Below, in pieces: positions 4,341-50,643 of a stretch of DNA of 64,000 nt. The stretch's first letter is position 1, and every line of letters starts with the position of its first letter. The stretch is from Nautiliales bacterium (GTDB taxonomy: Bacteria > Campylobacterota > Campylobacteria > Campylobacterales > JAADDX01): positions 42,181 through 106,180 of the forward strand of contig JAUUDM010000029.1 in assembly GCA_030826765.1 (NCBI GenBank), read 5' to 3'. A model generated the notes under the pieces. It worked only from the letters and a program-made list of their open reading frames with translations, was not told where the DNA came from and made no database searches. Made by a program: the position numbers and the translations under genes.

Positions 4341-5885
4341 ATGCTCACAAAAGAAAAAATCAAACAATTATTATCACAAAAAATTACTGAACTATCTCCA
4401 AAAGATATTTATCATTTTTCACTTCTTAAAAATATGGATAAAGCTACAAAAAGAATAGTAAAAGCTATTCAAAACAACGAAAAAATAACACTCGTTGGTG
4501 ATTATGATGTAGATGGAGTTACCTCTTCTACAATAGTTAATCAATTTTTCAAAAAAATAGACTATCCTTTAGAAATAGTAATACCTGATAGATTCAAAGA
4601 CGGATATGGACTTACAGCAAAACTAATGGATAGAATTAATTGTGATGTTTTAATCACTGTTGATAATGGGATTACAAGTTATGAAGCGGGAATTATTTGC
4701 AAAGAAAGAAATATTGATTTGATAATCACAGACCACCACACTCCGACCTACCCTCTTCCTGAAAGCTACACAATAATCGACCCAAAACAAAAAGATGAAA
4801 CTTTTCCTTTTATTGATATTTGTGGGGCTGAAATAGCTTGGTATTTATGTGCTTCATTAAATAGTGCTTTAAATAGCAAAATAGATATGAAAGAATTTTT
4901 AGATTATTTAGTTTTAGCAATTATTGCTGATGTTATGCCTTTAAATGATTTAAATAGAATTTTGGTAAAAATGGGACTTTCTCGCCTTTCAAAATCACAA
5001 AAGCCTTTTGCATTAGTTTTAAAAGAAGCTTTAAATAAAACTGAATTTAATAGCGAAGACATCGCTTTTAATATTGCACCAAGAATTAACAGTGCTGGAA
5101 GAATGAAAAATGCAAAATTAGCATTTGATTTTTTAAATAGTGAAAATTTAGTCCTTGCAAGAAAACTTTATGATAAATTAAATGAAACAAATGATTATAG
5201 AAAAGAGATTGAAAAAGAGATAAGTGAAATTTGTATAAATAGTAATCAAAATGAACATTTTATAATTGCAAGTGGTGATTTTCACGAGGGAGTAGTCGGA
5301 ATAGTTGCCAGTAGACTTGTTCATCACTACAAACTTCCTGCAATTATTTTTTGCGAAAAAGGAGATATTTTAAAAGGAAGTGGAAGAAGTTTAGGAGATG
5401 TAGATTTATATGAATTAATTAGTAACTGCAAAGAGCTTTTAGAAGGATTTGGAGGACATAAACTCGCTTGTGGACTCTCAATCAAAAAAGAAAACTTAGA
5501 CAAATTCACAACTAAAATAAACTATTTAACTTCACAAATTCCAAAAGACAATTTCTTTTTAGATGAATTTATTTTAGGTGAATTACCTTTAAGTGAATGT
5601 GATTTTGAATTATTAAATATTTTAAAAGAGTTTGAACCATATGGAGAAGCAAATCCAAAACCAAAATTCAGAGCTAAAGTAAAAATAGAAAATATTAGAA
5701 ATTTAAAAGATAATCATTACAAATTAATTGTATCTCAAAATGGAATTTATAAAGATGCGATAATTTTTAAATATGATGGTGAGTTTGATAATGAAATGGA
5801 GATTATTTTTACAGTAAATGAAAATAATTGGAATGGAAACACAAATATCCAACTCATGATAGAAAGATTTGAAGAAATTAAATAA
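4341..5885 (+). CDS. recJ: Single-stranded-DNA-specific exonuclease RecJ
   Basis: DHH-family motifs are present: LVGDYDVDGVTS, ITVDNGI, IITDHH and GFGGHKLACG. Length is 514 aa. Confidence 0.9.
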   Translation: MLTKEKIKQLLSQKITELSPKDIYHFSLLKNMDKATKRIVKAIQNNEKITLVGDYDVDGVTSSTIVNQFFKKIDYPLEIVIPDRFKDGYGLTAKLMDRINCDVLITVDNGITSYEAGIICKERNIDLIITDHHTPTYPLPESYTIIDPKQKDETFPFIDICGAEIAWYLCASLNSALNSKIDMKEFLDYLVLAIIADVMPLNDLNRILVKMGLSRLSKSQKPFALVLKEALNKTEFNSEDIAFNIAPRINSAGRMKNAKLAFDFLNSENLVLARKLYDKLNETNDYRKEIEKEISEICINSNQNEHFIIASGDFHEGVVGIVASRLVHHYKLPAIIFCEKGDILKGSGRSLGDVDLYELISNCKELLEGFGGHKLACGLSIKKENLDKFTTKINYLTSQIPKDNFFLDEFILGELPLSECDFELLNILKEFEPYGEANPKPKFRAKVKIENIRNLKDNHYKLIVSQNGIYKDAIIFKYDGEFDNEMEIIFTVNENNWNGNTNIQLMIERFEEIK

Positions 5886-6747
5886 TTTTACCTATTTCTT
5901 CTTTAAGTCCTTTACCCATTCTCATATTATGATAAGCCCATCTTAAATAATCAAAATCTCCTTGATTTGCAACTTCTTCAGGAGTTAATCCTTTATATTT
6001 TCCTACTTCAAATCTGTAAACTGGTGTTACTTCTTGCAAATAATAATTGATTGAATATCTAACATCGAAATCTAACTCTTGTTCTTGATTATTTAGTAAA
6101 TAATCGATATATCCCATATCTTTTTCAATTACATCTGCAATATTTTCAAATTTATATTTTCCAAAATAGAATTTTTCATATAAAATTGGCTCTTTTGAAA
6201 GCTTTATAAGTTCTTCAATTGTATGTTCTTGTAATAAATGATCAAGTAAAAGTTTTAAAACTATAACATCACCGAGGGAATTATGTGCATTTATCTCAAT
6301 ATTATATTTTTCAGCTATCTCTTTTTCTTTTTTATACAATCCAAGTGAATATCTATTGATTTGCAAAGAATGACGTCCCTCTGGCCATAAATGCTTAATA
6401 CATCTAAAAGTATCAATAATTTGCATTCTGTTTTCAAAATCTTCTTTAAAAAGCATTTCAACATCAAATTTTGCATTATGAATAACCATTACATTATCAG
6501 GTATATTTAATTCATTAAGTCTTTCCCACGGTTTTGTATTATGAATAACATCTGCTTTTTCTATCATTTCAGGAGTTATATGATGAATTGCCATAGCTTC
6601 ACAACTTATAGGAAGTGGTGCTTTACATAAAGTATCATGAATTTCTTCTATTTCATTATTTTCATCTGTTATCAGGAAACTTAGTTGAATTATTCTATCT
6701 TCTTCTTTTGTTCCTGTTGTTTCTGTATCCAATATTACAAACTTCAT
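5878..6747 (-). CDS. DEDDh 3'-5' exonuclease (DnaQ/ExoX-like) with a C-terminal DUF3820-like repeat
   Basis: Exo motifs are ILDTETTG (I), HNAKFDVEML (II) and AHNSLGDV (III, Hx4D). The C-terminus has two FGKYK(F/G)-type segments. The start overlaps the stop of the upstream cyclase gene (ATGA). Confidence 0.8.
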   Translation of the reverse strand: MKFVILDTETTGTKEEDRIIQLSFLITDENNEIEEIHDTLCKAPLPISCEAMAIHHITPEMIEKADVIHNTKPWERLNELNIPDNVMVIHNAKFDVEMLFKEDFENRMQIIDTFRCIKHLWPEGRHSLQINRYSLGLYKKEKEIAEKYNIEINAHNSLGDVIVLKLLLDHLLQEHTIEELIKLSKEPILYEKFYFGKYKFENIADVIEKDMGYIDYLLNNQEQELDFDVRYSINYYLQEVTPVYRFEVGKYKGLTPEEVANQGDFDYLRWAYHNMRMGKGLKEEIGKII

Positions 6748-8387
6748 TTATCACCTTCATAATTTGACGCTTCAAGTAATTTTTGAGAAAACTTAATTAC
6801 TTTGTTTCTTCCTGTATTTTTAGCTTCATAAAGAGCTAAATCAGCATATTTTATTGCTTCCCAAATTTTAGTAGTATGTTTAGGGAAAATAGAAACTCCA
6901 ACAGAAATTGTTTTTGTTAAAGTTTTACCATTTACTGTAATTTGAGTATTTGCAAAAGTTTCCCTTATTTTTTCAGCTACTTTTACAATTCCTTCTTCAT
7001 CTTTTATATTTTGTAAAATAATTATAAATTCTTCCCCACCAAATCTAACTACAAAATCACTTTCTCTTACACTATTTACCATAGTTTTTGCTAACTCTTT
7101 TAACACAGCATCACCTGCATCATGTCCATAAGTATCATTTACTTTTTTGAAATAATCAACATCAACCATCAAAATACCAAGTAATGATTTTTCTCTAATT
7201 GTAGAAGCTGCTATTTTATCAAGTATTTCTTCTAAATATCTTCTATTATAAAGTCCTGTCATTTGATCGGTTAATGAATTTTCTTTCATTAAATTAAGAG
7301 TATATTTTGCTTCTACTATCGAAGCTGCTTCATTTAAATAGCTTTCAACATATGCTATTTCATTTTTATGAGTTTTCCACTCTTCTTTTGAAAAATTTAT
7401 ATTTACAATACCTGTAAATGTCCCACCAGTACTAAATGGAATACAAATATAATTACATCCTTCACAAAAATTTTCTTGACAAATATGTGGAAATTTAAAA
7501 GAATTAACTTCTGAAGCTGTTCTATATGCTCTACACATTTTAGGTAAATGAATCTCACAACAATTTTCACCTTTTTGATAAATAGTTTCAATTTTTTGTT
7601 TTTCATTTAAAACTGCATATATTTTAAAATTTTCTAATTTAAATTTATTTTCTAAAATATCAATAATTCTATTATAAATTTCAGCTGTATTTGAATCTTC
7701 TTCAATAATTTTTTTGAATCTATTTATATCTCCTAAAACTTGCATATTTTTTTCAACATCTACTATTCTATCACCACTTACTGAAGCATTAGGAATTAAA
7801 ACTTTTAAATTATCTTCTATTAATTTAAAATTTTTATCTATTTGAGAAATAAATTGATTATAACTTTCAATTATATATTTTACTTGATTATTAAGTTTTG
7901 TACTTATTTTTTTAGAAAAATCTCCATGTTTAGCTTTTTTCAAACTTTGCCCAAATTCTTCAAAAATATTTAAATAAGGAGTTATTAGCCAGTTTAAAAG
8001 TAAATTTGAAAATAAAATAAATAAAATATTTATAATAACTGTTTCTAAAATAACCTGATATTTTTCATTTTCAAATTCAGCCAAAGATTTAAATTCTATT
8101 TGCAATACTTCTTTATTATTCAAATTTTCACATATAACATTTTTCTTTTTTTCTTTGCATAAATTTTTATCTGATATTCTTATATCTTTAATATTTGGCA
8201 TATTTTTAATAAGATCAAGTGCTTCATTTTTATCTTTTGAATACAAATAAATATCTCTAACTGTATCAGCTGAATGTTTAATAGCAAGTTCTGTAATAGT
8301 TGAAAATCTATACGCAGTAAAAGCGGTAAATATAATTCCACCTACAGTAATAACTAAAAATATAAATAATAATATTTTCTTTTTCAT
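6744..8387 (-). CDS. Membrane-bound diguanylate cyclase (2 TM, HAMP-like linker, Cys-rich GAF-like module, GGDEF)
   Basis: The GGDEF domain shows MVDVDYFKKVNDTYGHDAGD and RFGGEEF. There is an N-terminal TM, a region of about 90 aa, then a second TM. A cysteine cluster CC-x7-C-x17-C-x4-C-x2-C-x3-C spans residues 276-315. Confidence 0.85.
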   Translation of the reverse strand: MKKKILLFIFLVITVGGIIFTAFTAYRFSTITELAIKHSADTVRDIYLYSKDKNEALDLIKNMPNIKDIRISDKNLCKEKKKNVICENLNNKEVLQIEFKSLAEFENEKYQVILETVIINILFILFSNLLLNWLITPYLNIFEEFGQSLKKAKHGDFSKKISTKLNNQVKYIIESYNQFISQIDKNFKLIEDNLKVLIPNASVSGDRIVDVEKNMQVLGDINRFKKIIEEDSNTAEIYNRIIDILENKFKLENFKIYAVLNEKQKIETIYQKGENCCEIHLPKMCRAYRTASEVNSFKFPHICQENFCEGCNYICIPFSTGGTFTGIVNINFSKEEWKTHKNEIAYVESYLNEAASIVEAKYTLNLMKENSLTDQMTGLYNRRYLEEILDKIAASTIREKSLLGILMVDVDYFKKVNDTYGHDAGDAVLKELAKTMVNSVRESDFVVRFGGEEFIIILQNIKDEEGIVKVAEKIRETFANTQITVNGKTLTKTISVGVSIFPKHTTKIWEAIKYADLALYEAKNTGRNKVIKFSQKLLEASNYEGDK

Positions 8388-10846
8388 TCAAATTCTCCTA
8401 AAATTGTATTGATTTTTTCACAAAATCTTGATGTTTTATTAATAATAAAAATATCTCTTACAATGTTTTTTTGTATAGAAATTTTGACATCTTCTACATC
8501 TATTTTGTATTTATCTAAAATTTTCATTATAAATGCTATTATACCATTTTTATTTTTAGTTTTTAGTTTTAAAGCTATATAATTTTTAGAATGATTACAA
8601 TCTGTAATAAATTCCTCTTTTTTTAGCATAGGTTTACTAAATTTTATATCTTTATCTATTTTGAAACTATCTTCAATAATTTCATAAATTAAAAATTTGT
8701 CATCTTCATCTATATTTTCTTCATACTCTATTTTAAAATATTTTACATTATCAATTTTATAAATAGCAATGTGTCCTAATGATAAATGTGAAAGCTTTGC
8801 AAGTAAATAACCTAAATTAAGATTAATATCCTTTTTTATTATTTCTATACTTAAATGCTCTTTTGTATAAATTGAATAATTATATTTTTCACACTCTAAC
8901 ATTCTTTTAGCAATCTTTACTATTTCTTGTACACTATTTCTTAAAAACATTTGAATTGAAGGTGAATTTAATACTTTTTTTTGCCATAATTTTGGTAATA
9001 TTAAAAACTCATCATTTTTTAAAAGTTGCTTTTCTTTTCGTTGTCTCTTATTTGAAGCTAAAATAAGTTCTCTATTTTCTAATACTTCAAGAGTATTATT
9101 ATAAAAAGTTTTTAAAAGATTAGCTTTAAAATCATTAAAAATATTACCTACTGCATCCATATCTGCATAAGTTAAAATATAGAGCATTTTCAAAAACTCT
9201 TTTGTTTGAACTATATTTGCAAAATTTAATAAAACCCTATCATTATCAATATCCTCTCTTTGAGAAATATTTGACATAGTTGTATGATATTTTATAAGTT
9301 TTTTTGCTATTTCTATCTCTTCATTTTTGAATTTTAAATTTTGCATAAATTCTGCTACTAATTTTGCTCCAACTAAATGATGGTCTTCTTTTCTTCCTTT
9401 TCCTAAATCGTGAAAAAGTGCTACAATTTTTAAAACTTGTCTATTTTTTTCATTTAAACTATCAAACAACTCTTTTATATTCTCATATTTAATATTTTCT
9501 AAATTATATAAAGTTTTAATAGAATGAATATCTACAGGATATTGATGATATCCATCAAATTGAGCTAAATTTTCTACTTGTTTAAAGGCAGGAATTATGC
9601 TTGAAAGTTTATCTGCTTTATAAAGCGCTTTAATAACTGGATAAAGATTTTCTTTTTTAAATAGTTTTTTTAATTGTTTATTTGTAATATTTACTTTTTG
9701 ATGATAAAAAAGATTTACCAAACTTACATCATAAGTTTTAAAATCATTTTCCAAAAACACTTTAAAACTTTCTCTCATAGAATCACTATTATGCCAATTT
9801 ATATAAATTTTATCATCACAAATATAATACCATTTAGCAATTCTATTTATTTTACTAATGGTTTTACAATCAAATAAAAATGGTTTTAATATTTTCTTTA
9901 TATTTATCGAAGTAAATCTATTTATTGTCCATAATGATTTTAATAAATCTCTTACAAAAATCCTTTCTGCCTTTAATCTTATAGAATCTTTATATCCAAG
10001 TTTTAAAGCTATATCTCTTTGATAATCAAGTAAAACTACATCTTTATGAGATTTTGTGATAATGTGTAAATGTGTTCGAACTCTAAAAATAAACTCTAAA
10101 GCATTTCTATACTCTTTATACTCTTCTTCTGAAGATAGAATCCCTACTAATTCGGAGTTGTTTTTTACTCCATAAATAACATTCGCTATCCAATAAAGAG
10201 TATTTGCATCTCTCATTCCACCAAAACCATGTTTAATATCTGGCTCCATTGAAAGAGGATATTTTTTATGATATTCTTGTATTTTTTTATATCTTGCAAT
10301 TACAAATTCTTTTTGATTATCAAATCTGATTTTTTTCAGCTCATTTTCTACCTCAACCCACAAATAACGACTTCCAAAAATATATCTACTTTCTAAAATA
10401 GCAGTTTTTATCATTATATCTGTTTTACTAACTTCTAAAAGTTCATCTATTTTATGAACCCTATGTCCTATTTCCAATCCCAAATCCCAAAGCATTGTTA
10501 CAAAAGTTTCAATAATCGGAGTTAAATTATAACCCTTTATCTCTTTATAAACTATCATAATATCAATATCAGAATATAAAGACAACTGCTCTCGCCCAAA
10601 ACTTCCAAGGGCTGTCAAAACTATTGGCAAAGAGTTTATATTTGGTCTATAAAATCCAAATTTTTTTTGTAATACAAATTTAAAAACAATAGTTATAAAT
10701 TCATCCATCTTTTTTGTATATTTTATAAAAAACTGTTTACCACTAGCTTCTAAATCAATATTGTCTCTATATTTTTTAATTTCATTTCTTAACTCTTTTA
10801 TAATTTCAAATTCATTTTTATTTGAATATATAATTTCTTCTAACAT
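8384..10846 (-). CDS. glnD: [Protein-PII] uridylyltransferase/uridylyl-removing enzyme GlnD
   Basis: 820 aa. It has a nucleotidyltransferase motif (GSFGREQLSLYSDIDI), an HD domain (ALFHDLGKG ... HHLVGA) and C-terminal ACT-like repeats. Confidence 0.85.
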   Translation of the reverse strand: MLEEIIYSNKNEFEIIKELRNEIKKYRDNIDLEASGKQFFIKYTKKMDEFITIVFKFVLQKKFGFYRPNINSLPIVLTALGSFGREQLSLYSDIDIMIVYKEIKGYNLTPIIETFVTMLWDLGLEIGHRVHKIDELLEVSKTDIMIKTAILESRYIFGSRYLWVEVENELKKIRFDNQKEFVIARYKKIQEYHKKYPLSMEPDIKHGFGGMRDANTLYWIANVIYGVKNNSELVGILSSEEEYKEYRNALEFIFRVRTHLHIITKSHKDVVLLDYQRDIALKLGYKDSIRLKAERIFVRDLLKSLWTINRFTSINIKKILKPFLFDCKTISKINRIAKWYYICDDKIYINWHNSDSMRESFKVFLENDFKTYDVSLVNLFYHQKVNITNKQLKKLFKKENLYPVIKALYKADKLSSIIPAFKQVENLAQFDGYHQYPVDIHSIKTLYNLENIKYENIKELFDSLNEKNRQVLKIVALFHDLGKGRKEDHHLVGAKLVAEFMQNLKFKNEEIEIAKKLIKYHTTMSNISQREDIDNDRVLLNFANIVQTKEFLKMLYILTYADMDAVGNIFNDFKANLLKTFYNNTLEVLENRELILASNKRQRKEKQLLKNDEFLILPKLWQKKVLNSPSIQMFLRNSVQEIVKIAKRMLECEKYNYSIYTKEHLSIEIIKKDINLNLGYLLAKLSHLSLGHIAIYKIDNVKYFKIEYEENIDEDDKFLIYEIIEDSFKIDKDIKFSKPMLKKEEFITDCNHSKNYIALKLKTKNKNGIIAFIMKILDKYKIDVEDVKISIQKNIVRDIFIINKTSRFCEKINTILGEFE

Positions 10847-20451: not shown

Positions 20452-20478
20452 AGAGTTTAGAAAGATTTTCTAAACTCT
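20452..20478. terminator. 12-bp perfect inverted repeat between convergent genes, overlapping the last codons of amt
   Basis: Arms AGAGTTTAGAAA and TTTCTAAACTCT are exact reverse complements separated by GAT. It lies 12 nt after the stop of the 18410..20440 gene. No strong T-tract is present. Confidence 0.4.
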
Positions 20479-21623
20479 GGATATGCTTCTATACCACATT
20501 CAACTGAATCAAGACCTTCAATTTCCTCTTCTTCATCTGCTCTAAATGGAGAAATTTTATTGATAATAAAAATAGTTATATAACTTAAAGAAAATGCTAA
20601 AATTCCTATAACCACAATTCCTTTTAATTGAGTCATAAATGAAGCAGTACCAAAAATAGCTACTGCTAATGTCCCCCAAATACCATTTATTAAATGAACA
20701 CTAAGTGCCCCTACAGGGTCATCAATTTTTAATTTATCAAAAAATGGAACTGCATAAAAAACTAAAGCCCCACCAATTAATCCTACAATAATAGGTGCAT
20801 AAATATTCATCACATCTGCCCCTGCAGTAATCGCTACAAGTCCACCTAAAGCACCATTTAAAATCATTGTAATATCAAATTTTTTATAATATATATAACT
20901 TAAAATCATCACAATAAGTCCACCTGCAAGTCCAGCAGTATTTGTATTCATAATAGTCAAAGCAACAACTTCTACATCTTTTTTTGTGGCAATACTTCCT
21001 ACACTTCCACCATTAAATCCAAACCATCCAATCCAAAGTAAAAAGCCACCTAAAACAACTAAAGGAATATTACTTGCAGGAATAACTCTAACTTTTCCAT
21101 TTTTATATCTTCCTTTTCTTGGTCCAATAACTAAAATAGCTGCCAAAAGCGCCCAACCACCAGTTGAGTGAATAACAGTTGAACCTGCTAAATCTTTTAA
21201 ATTTGAAATATCAAACATTGTACCACTTAAAAAATTACTTCCCCAAGTTAAATTTACTGCTATTGGATAAATAACTCCAGCCATAGCTACTGTAAAAAAT
21301 ATAAGTGGAATAATTCTCGTTCTTTCACTAACACCTCCACTCATAATATTTACTGTTTTACCAACGAATGCCATTTGAAATAAAAACAGTGCCCAAGCAG
21401 ACATACTTTCACTCCCAAAAGCACCAAAAGCTATATGATAACCAACCAATAAAAACATCATACTTGCCACTAAATAAATCATTGTATTTGTAGTCAAAAC
21501 TGCAGTTACATTTTTTGTCCTTACAAGCCCTGCTTCAAGCATTGCAAAACCTGGCACCATTAAAATAATTAATACAAATGCAAAAAGTGTAAAAAATGTA
21601 TTTAAAATATATGCTATATCCAT
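20457..21623 (-). CDS. amt: Ammonium transporter (Amt family), copy 1, no signal peptide
   Basis: 388 aa, about 11 TM. Amt signatures are present: FNGGS, GGLVAITAGADV, DDPVGALSVHLINGIWG. Confidence 0.9.
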   Translation of the reverse strand: MDIAYILNTFFTLFAFVLIILMVPGFAMLEAGLVRTKNVTAVLTTNTMIYLVASMMFLLVGYHIAFGAFGSESMSAWALFLFQMAFVGKTVNIMSGGVSERTRIIPLIFFTVAMAGVIYPIAVNLTWGSNFLSGTMFDISNLKDLAGSTVIHSTGGWALLAAILVIGPRKGRYKNGKVRVIPASNIPLVVLGGFLLWIGWFGFNGGSVGSIATKKDVEVVALTIMNTNTAGLAGGLIVMILSYIYYKKFDITMILNGALGGLVAITAGADVMNIYAPIIVGLIGGALVFYAVPFFDKLKIDDPVGALSVHLINGIWGTLAVAIFGTASFMTQLKGIVVIGILAFSLSYITIFIINKISPFRADEEEEIEGLDSVECGIEAYPEFRKSF

Positions 21624-21689
21624 AAATTCTCCTTAAACAAAAATTTTTTCTATTATAATATAATAATAAAATTTTTACATATATAAAAT

Positions 21690-21706
21690 TGCTTAAATTT
21701 TAAGCA
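21690..21706. promoter_or_regulatory. 17-bp perfect palindrome TGCTTAAA-T-TTTAAGCA between divergent amt and PII promoters (candidate nitrogen-regulator operator)
   Basis: Arms were verified as reverse complements. It lies 32 nt from the minus-strand TATAAT (21657..21652) and 31 nt from the plus-strand TGaTAAAAT (21735..21743). The same dyad occurs at 39011..39027 and a variant at 49138..49154. Confidence 0.6.
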
Positions 21707-21751
21707 GTTAAAAATTTTGATAAACTAAAAATTATGATAAAATTACAATAA

Positions 21752-22102
<351 letters not shown>

Positions 22103-36437: not shown

Positions 36438-37298
36438 TTATTCTTCTTTTGATTTTGTTAAAAATATTAGCACAGCTAAAGATAAAATGATAAAAGATAC
36501 ACCACCCATTAAATAAAGGGCATTTATCATTTTTTCATAATTATGAATCGAAATTTTAAATACAATTATTAATGTTTCAATAGAAAGAGCAATTAAAATT
36601 GTTACTAAAAATTTTGTTAATACTTTAATCTCTAATTTTGATTCTTTTGAATAACTTTTAAAAAATACTTCTTGTTCTAAAATAGTTCTTGCTAAATCAA
36701 ATATAGCAAGTCCCAATGTAGTTGCTATAACTGGTTTAAAAATTCCATCAATATTTATATCACTACCTTGTATAAAATGATTTATAAAGTTATATCCACC
36801 ATAAATAATTGTTGAAATTGAAAGTATCATCATAAAAAATCCTGCAATAAAATAAAAACTTTTAATGATTTTACTAAAATAAATATGTTTTTCTATAATC
36901 CCCACGCGTTCAAGTAGCTTTTCTAAATCAAAATCTAAAAAGATTATATTATCCCCATCTTTTTTTGAGACTGTGATACAAAGTGTTCCAGTTGAACTTT
37001 GATAAGGTTTTGTAAAAGCAAAACCATTATTTTTAATTGTAAGTTTATTTATAAGATAACTTCTATCTTTATTTTTTTCATCATTATCACTATTTTTTTT
37101 ATATATATTTGGTGAGATTTGAATATTTGTTTTGGCATCTACTATGTAAATTAATTCAAGAGAGGGGAAAGTTAAAAAAAGTTGTTTATAAAAATCATCT
37201 GATTGATTTTCTAATTTTCCTAAACTTTCAATACTATTTTCTATAAAATTTTCAATCTTTCCTTTATTTTTAATATAAAGATCAATATATTCTTTCAA
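36438..37298 (-). CDS. Uncharacterised membrane protein: ~140-aa soluble N-terminal (Cache/PDC-like?) domain plus 4 TM helices
   Basis: 286 aa. No TM precedes the N-terminal domain. The C-terminal half has four hydrophobic helices. Only 30 nt, with no hairpin, separate it from the upstream amt stop, and an AAAGGA RBS is present. Confidence 0.6.
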   Translation of the reverse strand: MKEYIDLYIKNKGKIENFIENSIESLGKLENQSDDFYKQLFLTFPSLELIYIVDAKTNIQISPNIYKKNSDNDEKNKDRSYLINKLTIKNNGFAFTKPYQSSTGTLCITVSKKDGDNIIFLDFDLEKLLERVGIIEKHIYFSKIIKSFYFIAGFFMMILSISTIIYGGYNFINHFIQGSDINIDGIFKPVIATTLGLAIFDLARTILEQEVFFKSYSKESKLEIKVLTKFLVTILIALSIETLIIVFKISIHNYEKMINALYLMGGVSFIILSLAVLIFLTKSKEE

Positions 37299-37328: not shown

Positions 37329-38973
<1,645 letters not shown>

Positions 38974-39009
38974 TTATAATATTATTTAGATTAATTTTTA
39001 TATAGATAG

Positions 39010-39028
39010 TTGCTTAAATTTTAAGCAA
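39010..39028. promoter_or_regulatory. 19-bp perfect palindrome TTGCTTAAA-T-TTTAAGCAA upstream of glnK-amtB (same dyad as 21690..21706)
   Basis: The 17-bp core at 39011..39027 is identical to the site at 21690..21706. It lies 32 nt from the minus-strand TATAAT (38978..38973) and 65 nt upstream of the glnK ATG. Confidence 0.6.
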
Positions 39029-45160: not shown

Positions 45161-45237
45161 GGGTCTTTAGCTCAGTTGGTTAGAGCACTCGGCTCATAAC
45201 CGAGTGGTCCGGAGTTCGAGTCTCCGAGGACCCACCA
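45161..45237 (+). tRNA. tRNA with CAU anticodon (elongator Met or lysidine-modified Ile2; not initiator-like)
   Basis: Acceptor stem is GGGTCTT/AGGACCC. Anticodon stem is CTCGG/CCGAG with loop CTCATAA. T-arm is CGGAG-TTCGAGT-CTCCG. CCA is encoded. It starts 1 nt after the rodA stop. Confidence 0.88.
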
Positions 45238-45266
45238 TTTATTTTCTACTTATACTTGGAGCAAAA

Positions 45267-46226
45267 ATGAAACTCCCTCAAAATTCCGAAGAATTATTAT
45301 CTAATCTTGAATATTTAATCAATCAAACTTATGAAGTCGAAAAAGAGTTTAAAGAATTAAAAAATATCTTAAATGGTGTAATTGAGTTTTTACCACAAGC
45401 TATTTGGGTAATTGATAAAGAAAATAACATTATTGCACAAAATTCAAAAGCCAAAAATTTACCTGAAATTTTAAATACAAAAGAATCAGAAATAGAACTT
45501 AATAATCAATTTTACTTAGTTCAAAAATCAAATCTTGAAGATAAGATAATAATTTCTGCTACAAATATCACTGAACAAAAAAGAAACCAAAGACTTATAT
45601 CAATGGGACAAATGGCAGCACATTTAGCTCATGAAATTAGAAATCCAATAGGAAGTGTTTCTATACTACTATCTGTATTATCCAAAAAATGTAATGCAAA
45701 TAATATAATTATGGAAATAAAACAAGCTATATTTAGAGTTGAAAGAATCATCAAAACTACTCTTTTATTTTCAAAAGGTGTTATTATAAAACCTAAAACT
45801 TTTTATATAAGTGAACTTGAAAAAGAGCTAAAAAATGTAATAAAATATTATAGTTATTCTAAAAATATAGAATTTATTTTTTTTATGCCTGATATTGAGA
45901 TAAATGCTGATTTTGAATTATTTTTATTAGTTTTACAAAACTTAATTTTTAATGCAATTGATGCTATTGAAGAAAATAGTGAAGATGAAGGATTAATAGA
46001 AATCATATATGAAAAAAATGAAGATAATCATCTATTTCATATTTATGATAGTGGAATTCCTTTTGAAAATAAAAATATACTTTTTGATGCTTTCAAAACT
46101 ACCAAAACAAAAGGAAATGGTTTAGGTTTGGCTCTTTCTTTACAAATTATACAAGCTCATAATGGGAATATAACTCTTTCAGAAAATAAAAAAGGATTTG
46201 ATATACAAATTCCTTGTAATATATAA
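45267..46226 (+). CDS. Cytoplasmic sensor histidine kinase (PAS-like N-terminus, HisKA, HATPase_c)
   Basis: I moved the start to the ATG at 45267 (GGAG RBS) because track ORF 45204 begins inside the tRNA. H-box is HLAHEIRNPIG. N-box is LQNLIFNAIDA. G-boxes are DSGIPF and GNGLGLAL. No TM is present and no response regulator gene is adjacent. Confidence 0.8.
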   Translation: MKLPQNSEELLSNLEYLINQTYEVEKEFKELKNILNGVIEFLPQAIWVIDKENNIIAQNSKAKNLPEILNTKESEIELNNQFYLVQKSNLEDKIIISATNITEQKRNQRLISMGQMAAHLAHEIRNPIGSVSILLSVLSKKCNANNIIMEIKQAIFRVERIIKTTLLFSKGVIIKPKTFYISELEKELKNVIKYYSYSKNIEFIFFMPDIEINADFELFLLVLQNLIFNAIDAIEENSEDEGLIEIIYEKNEDNHLFHIYDSGIPFENKNILFDAFKTTKTKGNGLGLALSLQIIQAHNGNITLSENKKGFDIQIPCNI

Positions 46227-48565: not shown

Positions 48566-49126
48566 TCAAAAAACTATTGAATTTATATCTATTTCATAAA
48601 ATCCAATAATCGCATTCATCATAGCTACTTTTTGATAATTTTTAATTTCCTCTATTTTAATTTCTTTCTCTTTTAAAAAACCTTTTTGAAGTAATTCTTC
48701 TCTTTTTGTTCCTTTTAAAAGTGGTGTTTTTGGAGTTACCCACTCATTCCCATCAAAAAAAGCTAAATTTGAAATAGTTGTATCTGTAACTAAGTTATTT
48801 TTAACGATTATAACCTCATCAAATCCTTCAACTTTCAAAGAATTTAGCTTTTCTCTATCTTCACTTTTATAATCATATTCAATATCATCACACTCTACTA
48901 CTTTCAAACTATTAAACTTTCGTTTAGTTAACTCAAAATATTCTATTTTTTTTATTTCTTTTTCATAAACTACACGCACTCTTTTATTTGGAATAATTTC
49001 TATATAATCTACTAAATTAATTGCACTTGCATTATAAAAAACTTTGCGGGTTTTATTCATTCTATCATTATGATATTTTAAATTTTCTATTTTATCAGTT
49101 ATTAAAATTGTTTCGATATAGCCCAT
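48566..49126 (-). CDS. Aminotransferase class IV-fold protein (short, PabC/aminodeoxychorismate lyase-like)
   Basis: 186 aa. The N-terminus (ETILITDKIENLKYHNDRMN) and the segment GTKREELL match the pattern of short class-IV fold proteins. This is tentative. Confidence 0.4.
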   Translation of the reverse strand: MGYIETILITDKIENLKYHNDRMNKTRKVFYNASAINLVDYIEIIPNKRVRVVYEKEIKKIEYFELTKRKFNSLKVVECDDIEYDYKSEDREKLNSLKVEGFDEVIIVKNNLVTDTTISNLAFFDGNEWVTPKTPLLKGTKREELLQKGFLKEKEIKIEEIKNYQKVAMMNAIIGFYEIDINSIVF

Positions 49127-49137
49127 TTTTTACCTTT

Positions 49138-49154
49138 TGATTAAAATTTAATCA
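49138..49154. promoter_or_regulatory. 17-bp perfect palindrome TGATTAAA-A-TTTAATCA upstream of glnA (variant of the amt/PII dyad)
   Basis: Arms were verified as reverse complements. It differs from TGCTTAAA-N-TTTAAGCA only at the symmetric third position. It lies 31 nt upstream of TATAAT (49186..49191) and 71 nt upstream of the glnA ATG. Confidence 0.55.
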
Positions 49155-49224
49155 CTTTTTTATACACTTTTACTTAAAATCATACTATAATTATTACAAA
49201 TTTTAAATAAAATAAGGAGTTTAA

Positions 49225-50643
49225 ATGACTGCAACAGAATTTATGAACGAATGTAAAGAAAAAGAGATTGAATTTATCGATTTTAGATTTACAGATATTA
49301 ATGGAACTTGGCACCACGTAAGCTATGATATAGATGCTATTGATGAAGATACATTTAAAAATGGATTACCATTTGATGGAAGTAGTATTCCAGCTTGGCA
49401 ACCAATCAACGACTCAGATATGGTGTTAATGCCAGATATTGAAATAGGTACTCATTTTGAAGATCCTTTCACAGCTGATCCGACTATGGTAGTATTTTGT
49501 GATGTATTAAATACAGATTATACTCCATATCACAAATGTCCAAGAGGAATTGCAAAAGCAGCTCTTAAATATTTAGATGAATCTGGAATGGGTGATGTTG
49601 CTTATTTTGGACCAGAAAATGAATTTTTCGTATTTGATGATGTAAAAATTACAGATAAAATAAATTCTCAAGCTTATTATGTAGAAACAGAAGAAGGTGA
49701 ATGGAACAGTGATACTGAATTTACTGATAGTTACAACACAGGACACAGACCTGGAACAAAAGGTGGTTATTTCCCAGTAGCTCCAATTGACAGTATGGTA
49801 GATTTAAGAGCAGAAATGGTAAAAACTCTTAAAGAAGTTGGACTTGAAACTTTCGTTGTTCACCACGAAGTTGCACAAGGACAAGGTGAAATCGGTGTTA
49901 AATTTGGAACACTTGTAGAAGCTGCTGATAATGTTCAAAAACTTAAATATGTTATCAAAATGGTAGCTCACTTAAACGGAAAAACTGCTACATTTATGCC
50001 AAAACCTCTTTTTGGAGATAACGGAAATGGAATGCATGTTCATCAATCAATTTGGAAAGATGGTAAAAACTTATTCTTTGAAGATGGAACTTATGGAAAT
50101 CTAAGTGAAATGGCAAAACACTATATCGGTGGTATTTTCCATCATGCAGCAGCAGTAGCAGCAATTACAAACCCAAGTACAAACTCTTATAAAAGATTAG
50201 TTCCAGGATTTGAAGCACCTTCAATTTTAACTTATTCTGCAAAAAACAGAAGTGCAAGCTGTAGAATTCCTTTTGGAAGTGGAGAAAAATCAGTTAGAAT
50301 TGAAATGAGATTCCCAGATAGTTCATCTAATCCATATTTAGCATTTGCTACTCTTCTTATGGCTGGACTTGATGGTATCAAAAACAAATATGAACCAGTA
50401 GGACCAATGGATATTGATTTATTTGAATTAAGTCTTGATGAAATTAGAGAAAAAGGAATCAAACAACTTCCTCATACTCTAAGAGAAGCAGTAGAAGGGT
50501 TAATTGCAGACCACGAATTCTTAACACCTGTATTTAGTAAAGAATTTATCGATACTTATCAACACTACAAATTCGAAACTCAAATCTGGCCAGATGAAGC
50601 TAGACCAACTGCATTCGAATTTGCTTCTACTTATTCTTGCTAA
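49225..50643 (+). CDS. glnA: Glutamine synthetase type I
   Basis: 472 aa with GS-I motifs ([38 protein letters not shown]...RIEMRFPD). Confidence 0.92.

What the first reader, a model, noticed from the sequence alone, without database searches (positions are those of the whole stretch)
49138..49191. glnA promoter carries a symmetric variant of the same palindrome at the same spacing
TGATTAAA-A-TTTAATCA (49138..49154) is a perfect palindrome. It differs from the amt/PII dyad only at position 3 and its symmetric partner (C/G changed to A/T). It lies 31 nt upstream of TATAAT (49186..49191). A compensated, symmetric change is what is expected of a functional dimer-binding site, possibly one of different affinity. 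glnA is not paralogous to the PII or amt genes, so this copy argues against simple co-duplication. The dyad also abuts the RBS and start of the divergent class-IV-fold gene (ATG at 49126), which it could occlude.
Basis: partly seen in the sequence, partly recalled or inferred. Interest (0 to 1): 0.6.

Follow-up and report, generated by a model that had tools for sequence, protein, structure and literature searches.

The report
Conserved nitrogen-regulon operator upstream of glnA
The 17-base palindrome in front of the glutamine synthetase gene is a real regulator docking site, conserved across much of the phylum Campylobacterota in front of nitrogen-uptake genes and always 31-32 bases upstream of the promoter's -10 box; no regulator for it turned up in the literature I could search.

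Summary
TGATTAAAATTTAATCA lies at 49138-49154, 31 nt before TATAAT and upstream of glnA. Two TGCTTAAATTTTAAGCA copies sit in the amt1/PII-1 and PII-2-amt2 promoters, 31-32 nt from their -10 boxes.

A weight matrix built only from other genomes' glnA sites scores these three at 22 bits. The next best site in the window scores 12.4, and random sequence averages a maximum of 13.8.

The same dyad precedes glnA in 15 of 17 loci with full upstream sequence from Sulfurospirillum, Sulfuricurvum, Sulfurimonadaceae, Sulfurovum, Halarcobacter and unclassified Campylobacterota MAGs (16th: weaker TGGTGAA half-site; 17th: TGTATAA variant). It also precedes amt/PII, assimilatory nitrate/nitrite genes and porins elsewhere. 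The gap to the -10 box is 31-32 nt in 28 of 31 promoters. Campylobacter and Helicobacter lack it.

It is most likely the activator site (centre about -52) of a nitrogen regulon. Its invariant T-8 G-7, T-4 A-3, A/T centre and C+7 A+8 match the rules for a Fis-type helix-turn-helix.

The best regulator candidate is a receiver-less NtrC relic without the sigma-54 contact region, carrying a Fis-identical recognition helix and paired with a PAS-like partner. Relatives encode it beside PII-amt or glnD-gltDB, but it is not in this window, and binding is untested.

The "compensated symmetric change" argument fails, because position 3/15 varies freely and is often asymmetric.

The parts
49138..49154 (.). 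glnA operator: perfect 8-1-8 dyad TGATTAAAATTTAATCA
   Evidence: Scores 22.2 bits with a matrix built from other genomes. The orthologous position is conserved in 17 other glnA loci.
49186..49191 (+). -10 hexamer TATAAT of the glnA promoter, 31 nt after the dyad
   Evidence: The 31-32 nt gap is shared by 28 of 31 promoters. The transcription start is not mapped.
49225..50643 (+). glnA (glutamine synthetase type I, 472 aa)
   Evidence: Pfam Gln-synt_C and Gln-synt_N.
48566..49126 (-). Divergent 186-aa Aminotran_4 / PabC-like gene whose start lies 11 nt from the dyad
   Evidence: Pfam Aminotran_4 and a weak NCBIfam pabC match. This neighbourhood is not conserved elsewhere.
21690..21706 (.). Bidirectional operator TGCTTAAATTTTAAGCA between amt1 and PII-1
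21738..21743 (+). -10-like TAAAAT for PII-1, 31 nt from the dyad
21652..21657 (-). -10 TATAAT for amt1, 32 nt from the dyad on the minus strand
21764..22102 (+). PII-1 (GlnB/K, 112 aa)
   Evidence: Pfam P-II and NCBIfam.
20457..21623 (-). amt1 ammonium transporter (388 aa)
   Evidence: Pfam Ammonium_transp.
39011..39027 (.). Operator TGCTTAAATTTTAAGCA of the PII-2-amt2 operon
38973..38978 (-). -10 TATAAT of the PII-2-amt2 operon, 32 nt from the dyad
37329..38946 (-). PII-2 (38608-38946) and amt2 (37329-38621)
   Evidence: Pfam.
36438..37298 (-). orf286, a conserved Cache-like membrane protein downstream of amt2, probably in the same operon
   Evidence: 47% identical to the gene following amt in Nautilia. 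A weak dCache_1 match was seen on the Nautilia orthologue.
8384..10846 (-). GlnD (PII uridylyltransferase), the presumed upstream nitrogen sensor
   Evidence: Pfam GlnD_UR_UTase and HD. Its role in this circuit is inferred.

Best explanation
The dyad is the glnA copy of a nitrogen-regulon operator used by most Campylobacterota other than Campylobacter and Helicobacter. Its consensus is T G n T T A A w w w T T A A n C A.

A dimeric regulator binds it one fixed distance upstream of a -10 box. These promoters have no -35 element. The gap is 31-32 nt, so the dyad centre is at about -52 if transcription starts 6-7 nt after the hexamer. From there the regulator most likely activates the housekeeping-sigma RNA polymerase when nitrogen is scarce. 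This switches on glnA, amt/PII and, in other genomes, nitrate/nitrite assimilation genes and porins.

The invariant bases (T-8, G-7, the T-4/A-3 pyrimidine-purine step, the A/T centre, C+7, A+8) are those that define a high-affinity site for a Fis-type helix-turn-helix.

The best candidate regulator is a 220-265 aa NtrC/bEBP relic. It has no receiver domain. It keeps Walker A but has lost the middle of the AAA+ domain, which includes the sigma-54-contacting GAFTGA region. Its C-terminal recognition helix, G(I/L)NRNTLRKK, is essentially that of Fis.

This gene is paired with a PAS-like partner gene. By analogy with NtrB or NifL, the partner would relay the GlnD/PII signal.

What is shown: the site, its conservation, its fixed spacing, its gene set, and the candidate's domain make-up and neighbourhoods. 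What is inferred: activation rather than repression, the identity of the regulator, and the PII link.
For: Specificity. There are three 22-bit sites and nothing else above 12.4 bits in 64 kb. Each roughly 13-kb glnA locus of a relative has its single strong site just upstream of glnA.

Conservation and spacing. Seventeen glnA loci carry the dyad or a TGTATAA half-site variant, as do amt/PII loci in Lebetimonas, Caminibacter, Nautilia, L127 and L140. The gap to the -10 box is 31 nt in 16 cases, 32 in 12, 33 in 1 and 28 in 2.

L013 and L018 keep a weak pseudo-site at the end of the upstream gene, and the strong site lies 53 bp further on at the canonical distance.

Regulon content. Sites at canonical spacing precede nirA-nasA and an MFS nitrate transporter (L112, L119, L129), OprD-like and Gcw_chp porin-like genes (L101, L213, L215; L193 cut at the contig end, spacing not measurable), and amt/PII clusters.

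Absence. Campylobacter and Helicobacter glnA promoters have no dyad at that position.

Fis logic. T-8, G-7, A-3, T+3, C+7 and A+8 are invariant in 34 of 34 sites, and T-4 in 33 of 34. This matches the rules in PMC4784862: G/C at +/-7 read by Arg85, a pyrimidine-purine step at +/-(3-4), an A/T centre, and T/A at +/-8.

Candidate regulator.
- Its neighbourhoods link it to nitrogen genes: PII-amt-orf289-TF-partner in Nautilia, Caminibacter and Lebetimonas; TF-partner-amt2-PII-amt1-PII in L140; TF-partner next to glnD-gltD-gltB in the same MAG whose glnA (L019) carries the dyad; TF-partner-glmS with OprD-amt 8 kb away.
- Sequence: it aligns to NtrC1 residues 24-59 and then 171-208, so the GAFTGA region is missing. 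It gives weak ntrC/HTH_8 matches.
- Structure: the AlphaFold model has pLDDT 88.5, and its best structural match is the sigma-54-independent NtrX, followed by VpsR and NtrC1.
- DNA-binding domain: its best PDB sequence match is E. coli Fis, MGINRnTLRKK against MGINRgTLRKK.
- Distribution: named family members are all Campylobacterota.

Background. A large comparative study left epsilonproteobacteria out because they lack orthologues of NtrC and the other target regulators (PMC5343134).
Against: No transcription start site, expression data or binding data exist, so activation and the -52 position are inferred from geometry alone.

The candidate regulator is not encoded in this 64-kb window. I could not confirm that it is present elsewhere in this genome.

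Two family members (Hydrogenimonas, Sulfuricurvum) sit between slyD and fabD with no partner and no nitrogen genes nearby, and a third pair (L210) has only asnB and an aminotransferase nearby. The family is therefore heterogeneous and the neighbourhood argument is imperfect.

Its Pfam HTH_8 and Sigma54 matches are at or below the curated cut-offs.

The regulator gene's own upstream regions carry only weak or off-spacing sites.

Many sites in the 34-site table were found with a pattern that fixes some positions. Part of the apparent invariance is therefore ascertainment. Only the sites found by position are independent tests of which bases vary (L007, L019, L020, L023, L201, L204, L213, L215).
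Confidence: 0.62

Rival explanations
1. The site is the same and so is the regulon, but the bound protein represses. It would sit on the upstream A/T-rich region used by the polymerase alpha subunits and be released when nitrogen is scarce.
For: The dyad lies just upstream of the core promoter, and its A/T-rich surroundings could act as an UP-like element. In the window it also abuts the start of the divergent gene. Many Fis-type and NtrC-type proteins can repress.
Against: These promoters have no -35 element, and the gap to the -10 box is held to within 1 bp across about 30 promoters and many genera. That pattern is what an activator needing a fixed contact with polymerase would produce. A repressor would tolerate, and more often shows, overlap with the -10 box or the start site. 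The target genes are ones normally induced on nitrogen limitation.
Confidence: 0.18
2. The site is a real nitrogen operator but is bound by a different family. Candidates are a TnrA/GlnR-like MerR protein, an Lrp/AsnC protein or another unlinked regulator. In that case the NtrC-relic/PAS pair would be only a neighbour of nitrogen genes.
For: From my own knowledge, the length (17 bp), the TG...CA ends and a centre near -50 resemble the TnrA sites of activated Bacillus promoters. The candidate is absent from the window. Some family members have neighbourhoods unrelated to nitrogen. There is no binding evidence.
Against: The TnrA-defining T3 and A5 (TGTNA) are not met: position 3 is variable and position 5 is T. 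No MerR, Lrp or Crp gene recurs next to any target in 24 glnA loci and about 10 amt, nas or regulator loci. The invariant bases fit Fis-type recognition point for point, and the neighbouring regulator carries that exact recognition helix.
Confidence: 0.25
3. The dyad is a chance A/T-rich palindrome, or a by-product of the conserved C-terminal codons (L-I/V-N/K-F-stop) of the PHP-domain gene that often precedes glnA.
For: The genome is 26.7% GC, and the window holds 19 perfect 8+8 palindromes. The simple pattern count is only marginally unusual. In about 10 loci the dyad overlaps the stop codon of the PHP gene.
Against: Scores are 22 bits against a background maximum of about 14. The dyad occurs in non-coding DNA in the window and in L008, L013, L018 and L024, and upstream of unrelated genes (amt, PII, nirA, MFS transporter, porins). 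Campylobacter L022 keeps the peptide LVKF-stop without the dyad. L013 and L018 separate the gene end from the true site. The spacing to the -10 box is fixed.
Confidence: 0.02
4. The palindrome acts as an RNA or DNA hairpin, for example a terminator of the upstream gene or a structure in the 5' leader of the divergent gene.
For: It can form a 7-bp stem, and in the glnA copy a T6 run follows it.
Against: The stem is very weak: -3 kcal/mol for the glnA copy and -5.8 to -8.2 for the others. Complementarity is not maintained where bases vary: +/-6 pairs in 21 of 34 sites and +/-5 in 27 of 34. No Rfam family matches. The element lies upstream of the -10 box of its target genes, and in the window no co-directional upstream gene exists for it to terminate.
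Confidence: 0.03

Closest known systems
NtrC (NRI) binding sites and the proteobacterial Ntr regulon
   Same: The target genes are the same (glnA, amtB, glnB/K, nitrate assimilation; PMC5343134). The layout is the same: a 17-bp dyad with TG(C)...(G)CA ends, where NtrC reads TGCACCAnnnTGGTGCA (own knowledge). The candidate regulator is an NtrC/bEBP derivative with a Fis-type HTH, encoded next to PII-amt or glnD.
   Different: The inner half-site is TTAA, not ACCA. There is no -24/-12 sigma-54 promoter; instead a TATAAT box sits at a fixed 31-32 nt. The site is promoter-proximal and held to within 1 bp, not a distant enhancer. The candidate has no receiver domain and no GAFTGA region, so neither phosphorylation control nor sigma-54 activation is possible.
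Sigma-54-independent NtrC-family activators (NtrX, VpsR, Rhodobacter capsulatus NtrC)
   Same: NtrX is the best structural match to the candidate regulator, and VpsR is close behind. From my own knowledge, all of these are bEBP-like proteins that have lost sigma-54 coupling and act on housekeeping-sigma promoters.
   Different: Those proteins keep a receiver domain and a complete AAA+ fold and bind different sequences. The candidate here is about half their size, has no receiver, and is paired with a PAS-like protein instead of a histidine kinase.
Fis and its DNA site
   Same: The site obeys every Fis rule: a 15-bp core bounded by G-7/C+7, a pyrimidine-purine step at +/-(3-4), an A/T centre and T/A at +/-8 (PMC4784862; counts). 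The candidate's recognition helix, MGINRnTLRKK, is essentially that of Fis, including Asn84 and Arg85.
   Different: Fis is a small nucleoid protein with degenerate, genome-wide sites. Here the sites are near-perfect, rare (3 in 64 kb), confined to nitrogen genes and locked to one promoter position. The protein carries an AAA+ remnant in place of the Fis N-terminal arm.
Bacillus TnrA/GlnR boxes
   Same: It is a 17-bp dyad with TG...CA ends in front of amt-PII (nrgAB), glnA and nitrate genes. For activated promoters the centre is near -50 (own knowledge, not checked in a paper here).
   Different: The consensus TGTNAN7TNACA is not met at positions 3 and 5. The regulator there is a MerR-type protein controlled by glutamine synthetase, and no such gene was seen near any target.
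NifL-NifA partner switch
   Same: It offers a possible analogy for control: a PAS-containing, kinase-like but non-phosphorylating partner gene sits next to a bEBP-type activator gene, in organisms that have GlnD and PII.
   Different: This is entirely inferred. The partner has no significant match to NifL, NtrB or any solved structure.

Membership tests
Sigma-54 / NtrC enhancer-type glnA promoter | -24/-12 promoter (TGGCAC-N5-TTGCA) downstream of the sites | tested here: not met
   Direct reading of 49127-49224 shows no GG/GC element apart from the ribosome-binding site. A TATAAT box lies at a fixed 31 nt. The same holds in 30 other promoters.
Sigma-54 / NtrC enhancer-type glnA promoter | NtrC consensus TGCACCA-N3-TGGTGCA | tested here: not met
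   Only the 17-bp layout and the TG..CA ends are shared. The inner half-site is TTAA in 30-34 of 34 sites.
Sigma-54 / NtrC enhancer-type glnA promoter | A regulator with receiver + complete AAA+ (GAFTGA) + HTH | tested here: not met
   The candidate lacks a receiver domain and the NtrC1 60-170 region. PMC5343134 reports no NtrC orthologue in epsilonproteobacteria.
Fis-type HTH binding site | 15-bp core bounded by G at -7 and C at +7 | tested here: met
   34 of 34 sites. The rule is from PMC4784862.
Fis-type HTH binding site | Pyrimidine-purine step at +/-(3-4), A/T-rich centre, T/A at +/-8 | tested here: met
   T-4 in 33 of 34 sites; A-3, T+3 and A+4 in 34 of 34; centre A/T apart from one G at +1 (L215 OprD site); T-8 and A+8 in 34 of 34. 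Part of this reflects how the sites were found.
Fis-type HTH binding site | Bound by a dimer carrying the Asn84-Arg85 recognition helix | not testable with these tools
   A candidate with MGINRNTLRKK exists in relatives. It is not in the window. Binding needs experiment.
TnrA/GlnR (MerR) box | TGTNA-N7-TNACA | tested here: not met
   Position 3 is A, C, G or T (21, 4, 6 and 3 sites). Position 5 is T in 33 of 34 sites.
TnrA/GlnR (MerR) box | MerR-type regulator, often glnR-glnA linked | tested here: not met
   No such gene lies next to glnA in 24 loci. One MerR gene 9 kb from a regulator locus (L213) is unrelated to the sites.
NtcA (CRP-family) site | GTA-N8-TAC centred at -41.5 | tested here: not met
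   The dyad has odd length, a different sequence and a centre near -52.
Operator of a conserved regulon (general test) | Conserved in orthologous promoters while flanks diverge, and enriched before functionally related genes | tested here: met
Activator site (class I-like) | Mapped start site, with loss of induction when the site is mutated | not testable with these tools
   Only the fixed spacing to the -10 box is available.

The most novel reading that the evidence does not exclude
Campylobacterota outside Campylobacter and Helicobacter control nitrogen assimilation with an undescribed system. The regulator is a minimal NtrC descendant that has lost its receiver domain and its sigma-54-contacting AAA+ core but keeps a Fis-identical DNA-reading head. 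It binds a near-perfect Fis-type dyad centred at about -52 and activates housekeeping-sigma promoters that lack a -35 element. It is switched through a PAS-like NtrB/NifL-style partner that reads GlnD/PII, not by phosphorylation. This window shows three operators of that system.
Probability: 0.4. Interest if true: 0.75.

Novelty: new variant of a known kind. Interest (0 to 1): 0.62.

Why it matters
Nitrogen control is textbook knowledge for Proteobacteria (NtrBC), Firmicutes (TnrA/GlnR), Actinobacteria (GlnR/AmtR), cyanobacteria (NtcA) and archaea (NrpR). I found no regulator or operator described for Campylobacterota, a phylum that dominates sulfidic and hydrothermal-vent habitats. One large comparative study explicitly skipped the group because it lacks NtrC orthologues (PMC5343134).

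The dyad plus its spacing rule gives a ready-made predictor of the nitrogen regulon in any genome or MAG of the group. So far the regulon includes glnA, amt, PII, nitrate/nitrite assimilation genes and porins.

The analysis also points to a specific, testable regulator pair. If that candidate is right, it would be an example of a sigma-54 enhancer-binding protein being cut down into a promoter-proximal activator that keeps a Fis-like reading head.

Tried and rejected
Metagenome motif scan. Only about 10 of the 120 loci returned were usable.

Exact look-ups. Neither window PII protein is on record. Amt2 is on record, but the look-up returned only short contigs of the same organism, so the rest of this genome could not be searched for the regulator.

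Regulator search near glnA. Clustering the genes of 26 glnA loci found no recurrent DNA-binding gene.

Regulator search inside the window.
- Pfam and NCBIfam scans of about 28 ORFs found sensor kinases, GGDEF, MCP and GlnD proteins but no transcription factor.
- tblastn with the Nautilia regulator and its partner found nothing.
- A regular-expression search for the recognition helix found nothing.

Uninformative scans. The sigma-70 and terminator scan gave 4 promoter-like matches against 4.2 expected in this A/T-rich DNA. The Rfam scan of the glnA region found nothing relevant.

Literature. Seven searches, one using the literal site sequences, found no description of the motif or of a Campylobacterota nitrogen regulator. 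The CemR paper concerns a different regulator.

Partner protein. A profile search against PDB sequences gave only noise.

Neighbourhoods that did not help. Three regulator-family look-ups showed no strong nitrogen link: slyD-TF-fabD in two cases, and aminotransferase-TF-partner in one.

Hypotheses considered and dropped: NtcA, Fur-like 7-1-7, Lrp, LysR T-N11-A and HP1043/HsrA TTTAAG repeats. Their sequence or geometry does not fit, or no such gene recurs near the targets.
Full report
**1. The observation**

The sequence is exactly as described. TGATTAAA-A-TTTAATCA lies at 49138-49154, followed by 31 nt and then TATAAT at 49186-49191. A GGAG ribosome-binding site and the ATG of a 472-aa type I glutamine synthetase follow at 49225 (Pfam). 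On the other strand a 186-aa Aminotran_4/PabC-like gene starts at 49126, 11 nt from the dyad.

A search allowing two mismatches finds exactly two more copies, both TGCTTAAATTTTAAGCA, at 21690 and 39011.
- The first lies between a divergent ammonium transporter gene (amt1, 20457-21623, minus strand) and a PII gene (21764-22102, plus strand).
- The second lies upstream of a PII-amt2 operon (38946-37329, minus strand).

Measured towards each gene, the gap from dyad to a -10-like hexamer is 31 nt (glnA, PII-1) or 32 nt (amt1, PII-2). The 21690 copy therefore serves two divergent promoters symmetrically.

**2. Is it more than chance?**

The window is 26.7% GC and contains 19 perfect 8+8 palindromes. 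The raw pattern count is only mildly unusual: 3 found against 0.85 expected. The decisive test uses outside information.

A weight matrix built solely from glnA-upstream sites of other genomes scores the three window sites at 22.1-22.2 bits and everything else at 12.4 bits or less. In 200 composition-matched random sequences the maximum averaged 13.8 +/- 2.1 bits. All three sites fall in the 7.6% of the window that is non-coding. They occupy all three ammonium-assimilation promoters present.

**3. Conservation**

The window comes from a member or close relative of the Nautiliaceae. Amt2 is 82-84% identical to Caminibacter and 80% to Nautilia.

A genome-collection scan with GlnA returned 26 Campylobacterota loci. 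The results were as follows.
- In 15 loci (Sulfurospirillum, Sulfuricurvum, Sulfurimonadaceae, Sulfurovum/Sulfurovaceae and unclassified Campylobacterales or 'Epsilonproteobacteria' MAGs, 34-46% GC) a TGnTTAAwwwTT(A/T)(A/G)nCA dyad lies upstream of glnA.
- In a further locus (L023, 52% GC) the dyad has a weaker TGGTGAA half-site.
- In a Halarcobacter MAG (L007) the same position holds the variant palindrome TGTATAAATTTTATACA.
- In every case a TAnAnT hexamer follows after 31-33 nt, although the intervening sequence is unrelated.
- Each locus of about 13 kb has this as its only strong site.
- Campylobacter and Helicobacter loci have nothing at that position.

A complication is that in about 10 loci the dyad overlaps the last codons and stop (L-I/V-N/K-F-stop) of an upstream PHP-domain gene. 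Coding constraint cannot explain the dyad, for four reasons.
- It is non-coding in the window and in L008, L013, L018 and L024.
- L013 and L018 keep only a weak pseudo-site at the gene end and have the strong site 53 bp downstream at the canonical distance.
- A Campylobacter locus keeps the peptide without the dyad.
- The dyad recurs before unrelated genes.

**4. The regulon**

Further loci came from later look-ups.
- glnA: L133.
- amt2-PII-amt1(-PII) clusters: L127, and L140 with two sites.
- Assimilatory nitrite/nitrate reductase operons: L112 and L119.
- MFS nitrate transporters: L119 (divergent, with its own dyad 89 bp from the other) and L129.
- A Gcw_chp porin-like gene: L101.
- OprD-like porins and amt in L213 and L215.
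- PII-amt promoters of Lebetimonas (TGATTAAAATTTAATCA), Caminibacter (TGTTTAAAATTTATACA) and Nautilia (TGTATATTTTTTAATCA), each 32 nt from the -10 box.

Over 31 promoters the gap is 31 nt (16 cases), 32 (12), 33 (1) and 28 (2). This is the signature of a regulator that must sit on one face of the helix at one distance from RNA polymerase. With the usual 6-7 nt from hexamer to start site, the dyad centre is at about -52. None of these promoters shows a -35 element. I therefore read the site as an activator site. That is an inference, because no start site or expression data are available.

**5. What kind of protein reads it?**

Across 34 sites, T-8, G-7, A-3, T+3, A+4, C+7 and A+8 are invariant and T-4 nearly so. 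The centre is A/T. Positions +/-6 and +/-1 vary freely. Some of this invariance reflects how the sites were found; the sites found by position alone show the same pattern.

These are the determinants of a high-affinity Fis-type site (PMC4784862): a 15-bp A/T-rich core bounded by G/C at +/-7 (contacted by Arg85), a pyrimidine-purine step at +/-(3-4), a compressed A/T centre, and T/A preferred at +/-8.

It is also the 17-bp TG(C)...(G)CA layout of NtrC sites (own knowledge), and NtrC carries the same kind of DNA-binding domain.

**6. A candidate regulator**

No DNA-binding protein is encoded near the sites in the window. The window does encode GlnD at 8384-10846.

In Nautilia profundicola, Caminibacter pacificus and Lebetimonas, the PII-amt operon (with an orf286 homologue in Nautilia and Lebetimonas) is followed by a ~222-aa 'Fis family' gene and a ~220-aa gene.

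The first protein is an NtrC/bEBP relic.
- It has no receiver domain. Walker A is present, but the alignment jumps from NtrC1 residue 59 to 171, so the GAFTGA/sigma-54 contact region is gone.
- It gives weak ntrC and HTH_8 matches.
- A confident AlphaFold model (pLDDT 88.5) has the sigma-54-independent NtrX as its best structural neighbour, followed by VpsR and NtrC1.

The second protein has a PAS-like N-terminus and a faint NtrB match, and nothing else recognisable.

A full HMM search finds about 85 representative clusters of this 220-270 aa family. Every named member is from Campylobacterota: Sulfurimonas, Sulfuricurvum, Hydrogenimonas, Nautiliaceae, and MAGs labelled 'Helicobacteraceae' or Campylobacterales.

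The pair recurs next to nitrogen genes in independent lineages.
- Directly upstream of amt2-PII-amt1-PII in L140.
- Tail-to-tail with glnD-gltD-gltB, and divergent from a dyad-controlled porin gene, in MAG BIN3. That MAG's glnA (L019) carries the dyad.
- Followed by glmS, with OprD-amt 8 kb away, in L213.

The recognition helix is almost invariant: G(I/L)NRNTLRKK, or KINRVTLTKK in Nautiliaceae. The best PDB sequence match of the C-terminal domain is E. coli Fis itself, MGINRnTLRKK against MGINRgTLRKK, which includes Asn84 and Arg85.

So the site obeys Fis rules, and the regulator encoded beside the targets has the Fis reading head. This is the main argument for the assignment.

The weaknesses are these.
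- The gene is not in this window, and I could not check the rest of the genome.
- Two family members sit between slyD and fabD with no partner and no nitrogen genes. A third pair has only asnB and an aminotransferase nearby.
- Domain scores are below Pfam cut-offs.
- Nothing has been tested for binding.

I put the assignment at about 0.5.

**7. How it probably works**

The following is inferred except where marked.
- GlnD and the two PII proteins (shown to be present) sense glutamine and 2-oxoglutarate.
- The PAS-like partner relays this signal to the receiver-less regulator by protein-protein contact, as in NifL-NifA. Phosphorylation is excluded because there is no receiver domain.
- Under nitrogen limitation the dimer binds the dyad at about -52 and recruits or stabilises RNA polymerase at promoters that have only a -10 box.
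- This induces glnA, amt/PII and, where present, nitrate assimilation genes and porins.
- Because PII genes are themselves targets, the circuit is autoregulatory.

**8.

The shared element, the equal spacing and 'not a duplication artefact' are all supported.

The 'compensated symmetric change' is not evidence. Position 3/15 (+/-6) is complementary in only 21 of 34 sites and takes all four bases. Orthologous glnA sites read TGA..TCA, TGG..GCA, TGG..TCA, TGA..ACA and TGA..GCA. amt/PII sites read TGC..GCA, TGA..TCA and TGT..TCA. There is therefore no gene-specific variant.

Occlusion of the divergent gene's ribosome-binding site or start is geometrically possible. That neighbour is specific to this genome, so comparative data say nothing about it.

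A hairpin role is unlikely. The stem is worth only -3 kcal/mol, pairing is not conserved, and there is no Rfam match.

**9. Novelty**

Seven literature searches, including one with the literal sequences, found no description of this motif or of a nitrogen regulator in Campylobacterota. A large regulon study excluded the group because it lacks NtrC orthologues. The library does not cover subscription journals, so an earlier description cannot be excluded.

The kind of thing, a nitrogen-regulon operator, is well known. The motif, its promoter geometry and the probable cut-down NtrC/Fis-type regulator are a new variant. I rate interest at about 0.6.

Noticed in passing
window 5878-10846 (minus strand): GlnD (8384-10846), a GGDEF protein (6744-8387) and an RNase_T exonuclease (5878-6747) form a block. 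In Nautilia, Caminibacter and Lebetimonas the same exonuclease is preceded by the NtrC-relic regulator and its PAS-like partner. In MAG BIN3 that pair abuts glnD-gltDB. This suggests an ancestral nitrogen-sensing cluster that has been rearranged in this organism.
   Followed up: partly
window 36438-37298 (minus strand): A 286-aa protein with no Pfam family has a Cache-like N-terminal part and a C-terminal membrane segment. It is conserved directly after amt2 in Nautilia (47% identity; a gene of similar size sits there in Lebetimonas). It is probably co-transcribed with PII-2-amt2 and so under dyad control.
   Followed up: partly
window 21652-21743: The single dyad at 21690-21706 is flanked by -10 boxes 32 nt to the left (amt1) and 31 nt to the right (PII-1). 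One bound dimer could therefore drive two divergent promoters.
   Followed up: yes
L001-L023, about 100 nt upstream of glnA (e.g. L004 5904-5920): In many Campylobacterota the glnA dyad overlaps the last codons and stop (L-I/V-N/K-F-stop) of an upstream PHP-domain gene. L013 and L018 keep a weak pseudo-site there and have a separate strong site 53 bp downstream.
   Followed up: yes
L119 1544-1649; L129 203-295; L140 926 and 2771: Nitrate-assimilation and amt clusters of other Campylobacterota carry two dyads. The pair is 89 bp apart in L119 (divergent promoters), 76 bp apart in L129, and in L140 one dyad precedes each amt-PII pair.
   Followed up: partly
L101 607; L193 1292; L213 1785; L215 786: OprD-like porins and a Gcw_chp porin-like gene carry the dyad (canonical spacing in L101, L213 and L215; L193 is cut at the contig end). 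The nitrogen regulon seems to include outer-membrane channels.
   Followed up: partly
L201 12195-12726; L204 9585-10000: Spacers of 400-530 bp containing short repeated motifs (ttttccatt..., cacaaactca...) separate the amt/orf289 genes from the regulator gene in Nautilia and Caminibacter. In Lebetimonas the gap is only 20 nt.
   Followed up: no
L208 8001-8786; L209 8001-8792: A second context exists for the regulator family, FKBP/slyD - TF - fabD, in Hydrogenimonas and Sulfuricurvum. It has no PAS-like partner. This may be a paralogous subfamily with the same recognition helix.
   Followed up: partly
window 45204-46226 (plus strand): A cytoplasmic 340-aa histidine kinase most similar to FlgS/NtrB-type kinases lies 3 kb upstream of glnA (NCBIfam FlgS 317 bits, below the 600-bit cut-off). 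No response regulator gene is adjacent.
   Followed up: no
window 20796-20812: The next-best matrix hit, TGCATAAATATTCATCA at 12.4 bits, lies inside the amt1 coding region. It is within the range expected by chance.
   Followed up: yes
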